Source: Dendrobates tinctorius (Eukaryota). Taken from it: 64,000 nt of DNA. A program made the position numbers. This document shows positions 24,001 to 27,500 of the stretch, piece after piece. Numbering within the stretch: position 1 is the stretch's first letter; every line of letters begins with the position of its first letter. The stretch spans positions 13,516,001 to 13,580,000 of the forward strand of contig NW_027361704.1 in the NCBI RefSeq assembly GCF_039654945.1. Direction: 5' to 3'.

Positions 24001-24492
24001 TCCTGAGCAAGCAGGGGGGGGCCCACTCGTTGGCGACGGCACTGGCACAGGGCCCCTGATAGTACAGTGGTGTGTCTGATGGCGGGTGTGCCGAACCTGC
24101 ACTTTCATCTGCAGCTTCCTCTTTGTCACCGTGTAAGATGGAACTGTATATGCGAAGGGTAACCTGAGTTTCATCAGGGTCAGATTCAGGCCGTGTAGCG
24201 TGCGAGGGGAATGTAGTGGTCTGGGTCAATGTACCAACAGATTCATCGAGCAGTGGCTGGGCATCAGTGCACTTGTGTCGCCCCCAGGAGTACGGCCGCC
24301 ACAGTGGCATTACCTTCCTCCTAGGGAGTGTGATGTCATGCTTGGGAGCAACGAAGGATCACTCTAGCAGGTTAACTTATTGGGCGGCGTTATTCCCACG
24401 AGTCACGACCCTCCAAACAGCGTTCATGAAGGCAAAGTGTTTGTTTTACGTGGGCAGTATGGTTGCAAAGCTGAACCTTAAAGGAATGTCCA

Positions 24493-24523
<31 letters not shown>

Positions 24524-27500
24524 ATAATTTGACTCAACATGGGCAACCTCAACCATCCAGCCACAAAAAAGATGCACACATTGCAAGCTTAATTCCGTTA
24601 ACGAACGAGACTCCGTCATGCCCCGCGGTCCGAGTCCGGCTTACTAGAGGGACACGCGAGGCTCTGGCACGTGAGATTGGCCAATAACTGGTGTGTCATG
24701 CCATTACATGTCCGTGGCTGCATGTGCGCTACACTGAAAAGGCCAGCGTTTGTCGCTTACAGGTGCAGATAACCCGCTGAACAACGTTAGTGATGGGGAT
24801 CTGGGATTACAATTACTACCCGCGAACGATGATTTCCCACTAAGTGCAGTTCCAGAATTAGGCCTAACCGTCATTGCTGAAAAAAAATGAAAAACTTACG
24901 TGTGCAAACCACAGGTGCTGTAGCTTGCTTAACAGCTCGCCAGCCGTTCTCAGGCCCAGTATGGATTACACAAAGGTGAGAAAGGGTACCGTATCCCCGG
25001 ATAACATGTATGGATAGCATAGTGTACACATTCAAAATATATGTCTATAGATCAGGAGGCAGGCTCAGACGGTGTCAGGCCCAGTATGGATTACACGTGA
25101 TTGCACAAAGGTGAGAAAGGGTACCATATCCCCGGATAACATGTATGGATAGCATAGTGTACACATTCAAAATAGATGTCTATAGATCAGGAGGCAGGCT
25201 CAGACGGTGTCAGGCCCAGTATGGATTTGACGGCCCAGACTACACAGCGGAGGAGCAGGGAGAGGTAAAGATTGCAAATGCTGGGGCTCTGCCCAAGCAA
25301 GGGGGGCCCACTCGTTGGCGTCGGTACTGGCACTGGGCCCCTCATAGTACGGCGGTGTGTCTGACGGCGGGTGCGCACCACCACCGTCAGAGACACTTGA
25401 TTGCACTATGAGGGACCCTGTGCCAGTGCCCGCGCCCAAGAGTCGGCCTACCCACCTGTCCAGGGCAACGGCACTCGCACGGTTTCGTGCGCTAGGTGGT
25501 GACCCCGGCCATGGGGGGGGGAGGCAGCACAGTTACGGAGTTTTAGAAAGTGACATATGTTGATGTTGGACATTCAGCTGATGCAAAAGGCGAAATTGTT
25601 CAAGTCCCAGGAAGAGGAGGACCAAAGCAAGCCAATTTTCTGTCACCCTATGTGTCATCTATGGAAGGTGGGACAAAACCCTTGGAAACCCATGCATGGT
25701 TCATTTTAATGAAGGTTAGATCATCCACATTTTGGGTTGACAGACGTTTCCTTTTTTCTGTCAGATTGATCCAGCTGCACTGAAGACTCTTTCCGAGAGC
25801 ACACTTGCAGCTGGGCAAGCGAGCTCCTGTAAGGCATATTGTGCCAATTCAGGCCAGGTGTCCAGTTTAGCGGCCCAATAGTCAAAGGGGAATGACCTGT
25901 GTGGGAGAACATCGATATGGGAGGAAAAGTAGTTTGTAACCATAGTGGACAACTGCTGTCTCCTGTCACTTTCCATCGATGCAGTATTACCAGTTGTGTG
26001 AGCGGTACTTGAAAAATCAGTCCACAACATTGTCATGAAACCCCTGTCTCCAACGCCACTTCTGTGTGCACCACGAACACCTCTGCCAAGCTGCCCCCGG
26101 CCCATACGGCTCGTGTGAAAACCATTACCGCTGCTGTGTGCTGGGAATGCTTCAACCAACCGGTTTACCAGAGTTGCTTGTTTATTAGCCAATATTAGGT
26201 CAAGGTGCTCGTGTGGCATGATGTTTTGTAATTTGCCTTTATAGCGTGGATCCAGGATACTGGCCAACCAGTAGTCGTCATCGTTCATCATTTTGGCAAC
26301 ACGGGAGTCCCTTTTTAGGATCTGCAAGGCATAATCTGACATGTGGGCCAATGTTCCCAGTGTCAATGATGCACTGCGAGTGCTGGTTGGAGGAGCACTT
26401 TCTGGCAAATCCACATCCCTCCAGTCACGCACAAACCCTGTACCAGACCTTGCCACGCCAACATTTTCACTTGCCCCACGAGATGCATCCTCCACCCATA
26501 AGTAATCATCCCCATCATCATCCTCCTCTTCTTCCTCCACCTCGTCCAGGAGAGGTCCCTGAGCAGACAATGGCTGAATGTCATCAAGGATTTCCTCCTC
26601 CTCGTCAACATTGGCTGCAGACTCCTGCTCCTTAAGGTGCGTCAAAGTTTGCATGAGCAGACGCATAAGTGGGATGCTCATGCTTAGGATGGCGTCATCT
26701 GCGCTTACAAGCCGTGTGCATTCCTCAAAACACTGAAGGACTTTACAGAGGTCTTTCAGCTTCGACCACTGCACACCTGTCAACTCCATGTCTGCTCTCA
26801 AAGTGCCTGGCCGTGTATCCTCCCACAAATGCATTATGGCCTGCCTCTGTTCGCACAGCCGCTCAACCATGTGCAGGGTGGAGTTCCACCTTGTTGCAAT
26901 GTCGATAATGAGGCGGTGGTTGGGAAGGTGGAGCAATCACTGCAGCTTCTGCATACGAATGGAGTGTACAGGCGACCGGCGGATGTGCGCGCACAGTCTT
27001 CGCACCTTCTGGAGCAGGGCTGTTAACTCCGGATAATTGTTGAGGAAGCACTGCACCACCAGGTTCAAGGTATGAGCCAAGCAAGGTATGTGGCTGAGTT
27101 TTGAAAGGGATATGGCTGCCACAAAATTACGGCCGTTATCAGTACCTTGCCTGCCTCAAGATGTATACTGCCCAGGCATGACTCAGTTTGTCGCTGAAAA
27201 TACTCGGCCAGCACCTCCGCGGTGTGTCTGTCGCCCAAACACATCATCTGCAACACAGCCTGCTGACGCTTTCCAATAGCTGCTCGATAGGGGGACACCT
27301 CGTGTGCAACAGTGGCAGCTGCAGATGGAGTGCTCGTACGACTGCGCTCTGTGGACGAGCTTTCGCTTCTGGAGGAGGAGGAGGGTCGAACGCCTACAGG
27401 CTACTGTTTCCTATACCGTGGGCTAGGCAGCACTGTCCCACCACCGCTGTCCCCTGTGGACACTGCATCCACCACATTAACCCAGTGCGCAGTGATGGAC

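What the first reader, a model, noticed from the sequence alone, without database searches (positions are those of the whole stretch)
24384..24847. Degenerate 18S rRNA segment carried as cargo inside hAT-2
Seen: about 460 bp colinear with the 3' major domain of vertebrate 18S (roughly human nt 1110-1655), heavily substituted with an internal deletion. It lies between intact TIRs and I saw no TSD of its own. It is antisense to the transposase strand, so element or host-intron transcripts would contain anti-18S sequence. Inference: it appears more decayed than the element's ends, suggesting an old capture that has since been amplified by transposition. Such copies could confound rDNA mapping or supply antisense small RNAs.
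Basis: partly seen in the sequence, partly recalled or inferred. Interest (0 to 1): 0.65.

Follow-up and report, generated by a model that had tools for sequence, protein, structure and literature searches.

The report
Decayed 18S fragment inside frog transposon
A worn-out half-kilobase copy of part of the 18S ribosomal RNA sits as a passenger inside a dead cut-and-paste (hAT) transposon in a frog genome; it is real, but it is an ordinary kind of genomic debris.

Summary
Rfam finds one eukaryotic SSU rRNA match in the 64 kb: 24452-24883 (+), 108.9 bits, E 1.8e-28, model 1118-1666 of 1831. A truncated-mode run carries it back to about 24405. It has an internal deletion of about 60 nt and many broken pairs.

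It lies inside a 7,471-bp hAT element, 23135-30605. The element has 13-bp TIRs (12 of 13) and a perfect 8-bp duplication, CTGCAGAG. The piece is antisense to a BED/hATC transposase pseudogene with 4 frameshifts and 3 stops.

The piece ends in an A-rich tail (24880-24894), which points to a retro-copied, polyadenylated rRNA fragment. It also abuts a second, truncated hAT piece.

About 22% of universally conserved 18S positions are changed (hand count). The transposase frames fit only 2-5% neutral decay. So the piece predates this copy's death and most likely travelled with the element.

Whether other family copies carry it could not be tested. The only other copy is cut off by the window start, and no frog genome was on hand. 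I see no sign of function. It is a new member of a known kind, of low interest.

The parts
23127..23134 (.). Left copy of the 8-bp target-site duplication, CTGCAGAG
   Evidence: Printed; identical to 30606-30613.
23135..23147 (+). Terminal inverted repeat at the transposase-3' end of the element (TAGAGTTGAGCGA)
   Evidence: 5 matches with at most 2 mismatches in the window against 0.93 expected; 0 of 100 shuffles reach 5..
23135..23824 (+). Subterminal region shared with a second family copy (window 1-794, opposite orientation)
   Evidence: 84-93% BLAST identity. (605 of 689 aligned bases = 87.8%, 106 gap columns).
23982..24091 (-). Extra copy of one arm of the element's palindrome
   Evidence: 23986-24091 matches 25272-25376 at 84-85%.
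24097..24276 (-). Extra, 5'-truncated copy of the transposase N-terminal coding piece, fused directly to the palindrome arm (deletion-derivative architecture)
   Evidence: 24097-24273 matches 28499-28673 at 78.5-79.4%; a frog protein's residues 27-82 align to 24274-24110.
24277..24383 (.). Linker of unassigned origin; its right part may still be 18S-derived
   Evidence: No match elsewhere in the window. One search's truncated alignment reaches 24330, but with low posterior support.
24384..24883 (+). Decayed 18S rRNA fragment (3' major domain), with an internal deletion of about 60 nt near 24588
Evidence: Tool-supported from about 24405, and from 24452 by the gathering-threshold hit.
24880..24894 (+). 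A-rich tail (A8-TG-A5) at the 3' end of the 18S fragment
   Evidence: one of 11 such A-rich runs on the + strand in 64 kb.
24895..24940 (.). Short unassigned stretch between the tail and the tandem repeats
   Evidence: no significant match elsewhere in the window.
24941..25232 (.). 135-bp tandem repeat, about 2 copies
25272..25484 (.). Long palindrome downstream of the transposase
   Evidence: folds at -67.7 kcal/mol, z -6.8.
25657..28752 (-). hAT transposase pseudogene (BED zinc finger and hAT C-terminal dimerisation domain); five frame pieces, 3 in-frame stops at 28028, 27403 and 26939
29212..29542 (.). 118-bp subterminal tandem repeat, 2.8 copies
30593..30605 (-). Terminal inverted repeat at the transposase-5' end (TAGAGTTAAGCGA on the minus strand)
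30606..30613 (.). Right copy of the 8-bp target-site duplication, CTGCAGAG
1..794 (-). End of a second copy of the same family, cut off by the window start before the position where an 18S piece would lie

Best explanation
The segment is a dead, partial copy of the host's 18S rRNA covering the 3' major domain. It has no function.

Its most likely origin is a polyadenylated 18S breakdown fragment that was reverse-transcribed and integrated, LINE-style, into or beside an ancestor of this hAT element. Since then it has been carried as a neutral passenger in the element's 3' non-coding region. It decayed freely there while the transposase was still kept intact by selection for transposition.

The copy seen here then inserted at CTGCAGAG and died, picking up 4 frameshifts and 3 stops.

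Shown: 18S origin, position inside the TIR/TSD boundaries, antisense orientation, the A-rich tail, and the much greater decay than the coding frames.

Inferred: the RNA intermediate, capture before this insertion, and neutrality.
For: (1) 18S identity: a single Rfam hit, 108.9 bits, E 1.8e-28.

(2) It is not a working gene. It covers only model 1057/1118-1666 of 1831 and has a deletion of about 60 nt and many non-canonical pairs. No other rRNA hit occurs in the window.

(3) Element boundaries: TIRs match at 12 of 13 and there is a perfect 8-bp TSD. BED and hATC domains are present.

(4) Tail: A8-TG-A5 begins exactly where 18S homology stops. Only 11 such A-rich runs lie on that strand in 64 kb. 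My post-hoc estimate for one lying within 10 nt of the boundary is about 0.004. Both ends of the piece lie inside 18S, with no spacer sequence, as expected for a fragment of mature rRNA. Polyadenylated 18S and 28S fragments with mixed A-rich tails are reported in human cells (PMC1474067, abstract read). A LINE with endonuclease and RT domains, followed by an A16 run, lies in the same window.

(5) Age: about 22% of invariant 18S columns are changed (hand count). The 3 stops in 3,081 coding sites fit 2-5% neutral decay. P(3 or fewer stops) is 0.002 at 10% and 9e-9 at 22%. P(all 16 TSD bases unchanged) at 22% is 0.019.
Against: No second copy carrying the piece was seen. The only other family copy is truncated by the window edge.

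No TSD flanks the piece, so retroposition is unproven.

The piece adjoins a rearranged second hAT fragment and two short unassigned stretches. That fits DNA-level capture equally well.

My hand-counted substitutions are rich in transversions (about 11 ts to 34 tv), which is unusual for slow neutral decay.

CpG observed/expected is still 0.87, against 0.48-0.53 in the rest of the element.

The divergence figure is measured against the Rfam pan-eukaryote consensus, not against the host's own 18S.
Confidence: 0.6

Rival explanations
1. DNA-level capture of an rRNA pseudogene that was already old. There are two possible routes. In the first, the pseudogene lay in host DNA between a 3'-truncated autonomous hAT and a 5'-truncated deletion derivative, and the two outer ends then transposed together as a composite (macrotransposon). 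In the second, gap repair after excision switched templates and copied the pseudogene in as filler.
For: Right next to the 18S piece lies a second hAT piece in the same orientation. It is a transposase N-terminal fragment fused to one palindrome arm, only 78-85% identical to the element's own versions. It is truncated at about codon 27.

Unassigned stretches of 107 and 46 bp flank the 18S piece.

The element has exactly one TIR at each end and none inside.

Ac macrotransposons that excise and reinsert with 8-bp TSDs are described in maize (PMC9910405, passages read).
Against: Filler capture from rDNA does not explain the A-rich tail. The tail is compatible with an older retro-pseudogene sitting in host DNA.

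No internal fractured ends were recognised.

This cannot be told apart from the best explanation without other copies.
Confidence: 0.25
2. A one-off rRNA pseudogene that inserted into this particular copy after it landed here.
For: Only one copy with the piece has been seen. The second copy cannot be read far enough.
Against: If the piece began as a faithful copy of 18S after the element landed, the whole element should be about as decayed. Instead the TSD is 8 of 8 on both sides, and the coding frames carry only 3 stops (P about 9e-9 at 22% divergence, 0.002 at 10%).
Confidence: 0.05
3. A functional module: the anti-18S sequence in element transcripts feeds small-RNA pathways, or otherwise benefits the element or the host.
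For: The piece is antisense to the transposase. A run of about 26 nt still matches the Rfam consensus exactly (block 1, my reading). No AATAAA or ATTAAA on the minus strand lies between the end of the reading frame and the left end, so read-through is possible.
Against: The decay is broad and pays no regard to structure. Nothing shows conservation. There are no expression data. This copy's transposase is dead.
Confidence: 0.03
4. Chance similarity, a misassembled rDNA read, or part of a live rRNA gene.
For: None found.
Against: E is 1.8e-28. The piece is too decayed and too truncated to be a read from live rDNA. No 5.8S or 28S hit occurs in the window. It is embedded in continuous transposon sequence, and the only N run, at 12760-12905, is far away.
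Confidence: 0.01

Closest known systems
Dispersed rRNA/rDNA pseudogenes outside the rDNA arrays (e.g. Robicheau et al. 2017, PMC5381670; abstract and passages read)
   Same: A degraded, functionless rDNA-derived sequence lying away from the rDNA arrays.
   Different: Those are described as near full-length rDNA units and edge-of-array copies in human. This is a 0.5-kb internal 18S fragment with an A-rich tail, enclosed within a DNA transposon.
Transposons that hold rDNA-derived sequence: Pokey/mPok (piggyBac, IGS-derived repeats), SINE28 (28S), 5S-derived SINEs, Cassandra TRIMs (review PMC10946416, Table 2 and text passages read)
   Same: rDNA-derived sequence sits inside a mobile element and can be spread by it.
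   Different: In the listed cases the rDNA part is a promoter or a spacer repeat with a presumed use, or it forms the SINE body itself. Here it is an internal 18S coding fragment, antisense and decayed, in a hAT element. The passages I saw list no 18S-in-hAT case.
Transduplication / gene-fragment capture by DNA transposons (Pack-MULEs; Turmoil-1, PMC2572040; hAT-mediated amplification of a housekeeping gene in fungi, PMC6710886). For these I saw only the search listings and the starts of the abstracts.
   Same: Host-derived sequence lies between the TIRs, and one TSD flanks the whole.
   Different: Those cargoes are protein-coding gene fragments shared by several copies. Here the cargo is rRNA-derived, carries a retro-type tail, and sharing among copies is untested.
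Ac macrotransposons / composite insertions in maize (PMC9910405, passages read)
   Same: They are hAT-superfamily elements in which a 5' end and a 3' end from separate element pieces enclose foreign DNA and move with an 8-bp TSD.
   Different: The maize cases were observed as they happened. Here a composite origin is only one reading of the internal second hAT fragment.

Membership tests
Eukaryotic SSU (18S) rRNA, Rfam RF01960: sequence family | Score at or above the curated gathering threshold (50 bits) | tested here: met
   108.9 bits, E 1.8e-28.
Functional 18S rRNA gene | Full-length molecule (model 1-1831) | tested here: not met
   Only model 1057/1118-1666 is covered, with about 60 positions deleted inside.
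Functional 18S rRNA gene | Conserved helices kept as standard base pairs | tested here: not met
   Many pairs are flagged non-canonical in the NC lines. About 22% of upper-case consensus columns are changed (hand count).
Functional 18S rRNA gene | Sits in an rDNA unit alongside 5.8S and 28S | tested here: not met
   It is the only rRNA-family hit in the 64 kb.
hAT superfamily DNA transposon (the carrier) | 8-bp target-site duplication | tested here: met
   CTGCAGAG at 23127-23134 and 30606-30613.
hAT superfamily DNA transposon (the carrier) | Short terminal inverted repeats | tested here: met
   13 bp, 12 of 13 complementary. The motif is enriched, with 5 matches against 0.93 expected.
hAT superfamily DNA transposon (the carrier) | Transposase with a BED zinc finger and the hAT C-terminal dimerisation domain | tested here: met
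   PF02892 at E 1.9e-11 and PF05699 at E 1.8e-5; 2 of the 8 ORFs scanned had hits. Relatives are annotated ZBED4/6-like and carry the same domains.
hAT superfamily DNA transposon (the carrier) | Intact catalytic core / autonomous copy | tested here: not met
   4 frameshifts and 3 in-frame stops. The catalytic residues were not examined.
Processed (LINE-mediated) retro-pseudogene | Poly(A) or A-rich tail at the 3' end of the sense strand | tested here: met
   A8-TG-A5 at 24880-24894, right at the end of the 18S homology.
Processed (LINE-mediated) retro-pseudogene | Flanking target-site duplication | tested here: not met
   The best match is a 6-mer, and 214 of 300 shuffles do as well. A short TSD could have been erased at this level of decay.
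Processed (LINE-mediated) retro-pseudogene | Only mature-RNA sequence, with no flanking spacer or promoter | tested here: inconclusive
   Both ends fall inside 18S. The flanks match nothing in the window. No rDNA spacer reference was available to rule out spacer origin.
Cargo-carrying (transduplicating) transposon family | Cargo lies between the TIRs, with one TSD around the whole | tested here: met
Cargo-carrying (transduplicating) transposon family | Several copies at different sites share the same cargo and junctions | not testable with these tools
   The second copy is cut off by the window start. No eukaryotic genome collection was on hand. Proxy searches with two junction ORFs found nothing.
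Macrotransposon / composite hAT | Two separate element pieces in direct orientation supply the outer ends | tested here: inconclusive
   A second, truncated hAT piece at 78-85% identity lies at 23982-24276. It could equally be an old internal duplication.
rRNA-derived SINE (e.g. SINE28) | A short autonomous-looking unit with its own TSD and many dispersed copies | tested here: not met
   No TSD. No other copy in the 64 kb. Genome-wide copy number is not testable here.

The most novel reading that the evidence does not exclude
The whole hAT family carries this antisense 18S segment as a retained module. Read-through transcripts would then supply anti-18S RNA that enters small-RNA pathways, or the rRNA-like sequence would help the element, for instance by homing to rDNA or by escaping silencing. 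That would be a transposon using ribosomal sequence, not merely dragging it along.
Probability: 0.03. Interest if true: 0.6.

Novelty: new member of a known kind. Interest (0 to 1): 0.25.

Why it matters
Mostly as housekeeping. In giant, repeat-filled frog genomes, rRNA-like debris carried by transposons can produce spurious partial SSU calls, soak up reads in rRNA filtering, and confuse rDNA mapping.

One feature is useful in its own right. The source sequence, 18S, is almost invariant, so the ancestral state of the cargo is known. If the family shares the piece, it gives a rare direct measure of how long and how fast a DNA-transposon lineage has been evolving, and of the local mutation spectrum.

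The locus also records an RNA-derived insert and an internal rearrangement inside an animal hAT element. Documented cargo capture in animal hAT elements appears uncommon in the literature I could search.

Tried and rejected
Other copies within the window: self-BLAST of 22500-31500 and of the 18S piece found no second 18S-like stretch. The only other copy of the element's end (1-794) is cut by the window edge.

Protein-database proxy for shared junctions: two ORFs were searched. One spans the hAT-fragment/18S junction (24168-24527 +). The other spans the hAT-fragment/palindrome junction (23930-24358 -). Both gave no hit at E<=0.001 in the 'near' length class. This is weak evidence only, because spurious ORFs are rarely deposited.

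TSD hunt around the piece: nothing above chance.

Rfam on 24250-24470 alone: no SSU hit.

Poly(A) signals: the only minus-strand hexamer in 23135-25760 is ATTAAA at 25705-25710. It lies inside the last coding piece, so the transcript end is not predictable.

Not run because they cannot bear on the question:
- the bacterial/archaeal genome-contig scan
- the phage, plasmid and E. coli collections
- structure, complex and atlas tools
- the representative-protein search

Closed and therefore unchecked: metagenome contigs and viral contigs.

No frog 18S or frog genome was available, and I did not type a remembered 18S. So divergence was measured only against the Rfam consensus as printed, counted by hand. 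The consensus was not typed into a script.

Paper supplements are closed. Supplementary tables of the review PMC10946416 might list further rDNA-in-transposon cases that I could not see.
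Full report
WHAT IS THERE

A gathering-threshold Rfam scan of all 64 kb gives a single hit among 4227 families. It is eukaryotic SSU rRNA (RF01960) at 24452-24883 on the + strand: 108.9 bits against a cut-off of 50, E 1.8e-28, model positions 1118-1666 of 1831 (alignment).

A sub-run on 24585-24724 aligns to model 1315-1493. Read together, about 60 model positions (roughly 1256-1315) are missing near 24588, and the following variable stretch is 25 nt where the model has 62.

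A run on 24330-24545 in truncated mode aligns model 1057-1211 at 82.2 bits. Support is good from about 24405, and 24346-24404 is treated as an insertion. The stretch 24250-24470 alone gave nothing.

Its end should be moved from 24847 to about 24883. Its start at 24384 is plausible but tool-supported only from about 24405. That 24384-24404 resembles a vertebrate-type 18S expansion is my recollection, not a tool result.

By my hand count on the printed alignments, about 191 of 245 upper-case consensus columns are kept (78%). Many helices carry non-canonical pairs.

No 5.8S or 28S hit and no second 18S-like stretch occurs in the window. This is a dead fragment, not part of an rDNA unit.

THE CARRIER

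The motif TAGAGTTGAGCGA occurs 5 times in the window with at most 2 mismatches, against 0.93 expected; 0 of 100 shuffles reach 5.

The occurrences at 23135-23147 (+) and 30593-30605 (-) face each other and agree at 12 of 13 bases. They are flanked by the same 8 bases, CTGCAGAG, at 23127-23134 and 30606-30613. That defines a 7,471-bp hAT element.

Its transposase lies on the minus strand from 28752 to 25657. It has a BED zinc finger (E 1.9e-11) and the hAT C-terminal dimerisation domain (E 1.8e-5); these were the 2 of 8 ORFs scanned that had hits.

The transposase is broken into five frame pieces, meaning 4 frameshifts. It has 3 in-frame stops, at 28028, 27403 and 26939.

HOST ORGANISM

A search with the 391-aa C-terminal piece gave 29 proteins at E<=1e-10 among 8000 scored candidates. 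The best are Ranitomeya imitator models at about 69% identity. All other named hits are frog proteins, apart from one newt protein (Lissotriton). Four hits are unnamed.

I take the window for a frog genome, not human. I did not try to pin down the species.

Of 47 further ORFs of at least 110 aa outside this element, 9 matched a Pfam family (47 of the 59 found; the other 12 lie in the element). Eight of the nine are transposon domains: hAT, Tc1, LINE endonuclease/RT and LTR protease. The ninth is a sub-threshold Sir1 match.

ANATOMY AROUND THE 18S PIECE

Read along the transposase strand, the element's 3' part runs in this order:
- end of the reading frame (25657)
- a long palindrome, 25484-25272 (DNA fold -67.7 kcal/mol, z -6.8)
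- about two 135-bp tandem repeats, 25232-24941
- 46 unassigned bases
- a T-run, which is the A-rich tail on the + strand (24894-24880)
- the antisense 18S piece (24883-24384)
- 107 unassigned bases
- a second copy of the transposase N-terminal coding piece (24276-24097), 78.5-79.4% identical to 28673-28499
- fused directly to it, a second copy of one palindrome arm (24091-23982), 84-85% identical to 25376-25272
- the subterminal region, then the TIR at 23135

The extra hAT piece has the architecture of an internal-deletion derivative. It is cut off at about codon 27 of a related frog protein. No TIR-like motif lies inside the element.

HOW THE PIECE ARRIVED

The 18S homology stops at an A8-TG-A5 run at 24880-24894. 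Only 11 runs that rich in A (at least 13 of 15) lie on the + strand of the whole window. By my post-hoc estimate, one lying within 10 nt of the boundary on the sense strand has a chance of about 0.004.

Both ends of the piece fall inside 18S. Truncated 18S and 28S fragments with poly(A) or mixed A-rich tails are reported as degradation intermediates in human cells (PMC1474067, abstract read).

A LINE with endonuclease and reverse-transcriptase domains, followed about 580 nt later by an A16 run, lies at 58801-62923 in the same window. So poly(A)-using retro-machinery plausibly exists in this genome; this is inference.

No TSD flanks the piece: the best match is a 6-mer, and 214 of 300 shuffles do as well. 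At this level of decay a short TSD would be hard to see.

I therefore favour an RNA-derived (retro-copied) origin, without proof.

WHEN IT ARRIVED

If the piece began as a faithful copy of 18S, about 22% of positions that do not vary in working 18S have since changed.

The transposase frames tell a different age. Of all single substitutions in their 3,081 sites, 3.9% would make a stop. The 3 stops seen therefore fit 2-5% neutral divergence. P(3 or fewer stops) is 0.002 at 10% and 9e-9 at 22%. The 16 TSD bases are all unchanged, which has P = 0.019 at 22%.

The second family copy (window 1-794) is 87.8% identical to 23135-23824: 605 of 689 aligned bases, with 106 gap columns that are mostly one indel.

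So the 18S piece has decayed several times longer than this copy has been dead. That argues against a one-off insertion into this copy after it landed.

Two readings remain:
- The piece rode for a long time in a lineage whose transposase was still under selection.
- The piece was already an old pseudogene in host DNA when it was enclosed. That could have happened by two fractured hAT pieces moving together as a macrotransposon, as shown for Ac in maize (PMC9910405, passages read). It could also have happened by template switching during gap repair.

The window cannot separate these two.

WHAT COULD NOT BE TESTED

The decisive test is whether other family copies share the piece, its junctions and its deletion. 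It is out of reach here for four reasons:
- The second copy ends at window position 1, which corresponds to 23824.
- No eukaryotic genome collection was available.
- Two proxy searches with junction-spanning ORFs found nothing.

No host 18S was on hand either, so the divergence figure is against the Rfam consensus only.

POINTS THAT SIT BADLY WITH SIMPLE NEUTRAL DECAY

My hand-counted changes at conserved columns are about 11 transitions to 34 transversions.

CpG observed/expected in the piece is still 0.87, against 0.48-0.53 in the rest of the element and 0.44 in the window.

Other repeat pairs in the window are also transversion-rich: 35 ts to 49 tv between the two family copies, and 8 to 28 in the duplicated coding piece. 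So this may be a property of the genome or of the alignments and not specific to the 18S piece. I leave it unexplained.

FUNCTION

I see none. The decay ignores rRNA structure, and this copy's transposase is dead.

On the minus strand, the only poly(A) hexamer between 25760 and 23135 is ATTAAA at 25705-25710, which lies inside the last coding piece. Read-through into the anti-18S stretch is therefore neither predicted nor excluded.

One run of about 26 nt still matches the consensus exactly (my reading). That is all that can be said in favour of the small-RNA idea.

COMPARISON WITH WHAT IS KNOWN

Transposons that contain rDNA-derived sequence are well known. The passages I read of the review PMC10946416 list these: IGS-derived repeats in Pokey, 28S in SINE28, and 5S promoters in SINEs and in Cassandra. 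No 18S fragment in a hAT element appears there.

Three full-text searches listed no paper whose title or abstract start describes one. That is not proof of absence, and supplements were closed.

Degraded rDNA copies outside the arrays are documented in human (PMC5381670).

Capture of host gene fragments by DNA transposons is established. This includes hAT in fungi and the elegans Turmoil-1 case, for which I saw only listings and the starts of abstracts.

This locus is a new example of a known kind of thing.

VERDICT

Novelty is low and interest is 0.25.

Noticed in passing
window 4228-8042 (+) and 36927-38584 (-); TIR-like motifs at 11887-11899 (-) and 41313-41325 (-): There are two more hAT transposase remnants (BED and hATC domains) from related but distinct families, and two more matches to the same 13-bp terminal motif. 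Neither element has any rRNA-like hit.
   Followed up: partly
window 25265-25490: A long GC-rich palindrome lies just downstream of the transposase (DNA fold -67.7 kcal/mol, z -6.8). It draws sub-threshold miRNA-family hits (MIR8670 at 42 bits against a cut-off of 150). Its centre coincides with the breakpoint of the duplicated deletion-derivative piece.
   Followed up: partly
window 20784-21886: A set of nested inverted repeats (arms up to 137 nt, 90-100% complementary) forms a foldback structure of about 1.1 kb, probably a foldback or MITE-like element.
   Followed up: no
window 21951-23081 (-), immediately left of the hAT insertion site: Tc1/mariner-like transposase ORF pieces abut the hAT element's left TSD, so the hAT appears to have landed in or beside an older Tc1-like element. 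A better-preserved Tc1 transposase (HTH_Tnp_Tc3_2, DDE_3) lies at 52108-53206.
   Followed up: no
window 58074-58208 and 58801-62923: A degenerate telomere-like repeat (CCCTAA variants) lies just upstream of a LINE remnant. The LINE has endonuclease and reverse-transcriptase domains and ends near an A16 run at about 62907-62923.
   Followed up: partly
window 13407-13696 and 35517-35725: Two tandem arrays of 71-73 bp share nearly the same unit (GGTGGTAATATGTGG...). The first explains the strong GC skew in 12001-14000, next to the N gap at 12760-12905, which I left untouched.
   Followed up: no
window 39694-40177: A 26-bp minisatellite with 18.6 copies and 94% matches.
   Followed up: no
window 1-794 vs 23135-23824; 24097-24273 vs 28499-28673; 24384-24883: Differences between repeat copies are transversion-rich: 35 ts to 49 tv, and 8 ts to 28 tv. 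For the 18S piece against the Rfam consensus, my hand count is about 11 ts to 34 tv. The 18S piece also keeps a CpG observed/expected of 0.87. This is unusual for slow decay in a methylated vertebrate genome and remains unexplained.
   Followed up: partly
window 23930-24358 (-) and 25200-25532 (-): Open frames of 142 and 110 aa run through the palindrome arms and share a motif (...PPSDTP.YY.GP...ANEWAP...). They have no Pfam match and, for the first, no database relative. They are probably a by-product of GC-rich palindromic sequence.
   Followed up: partly
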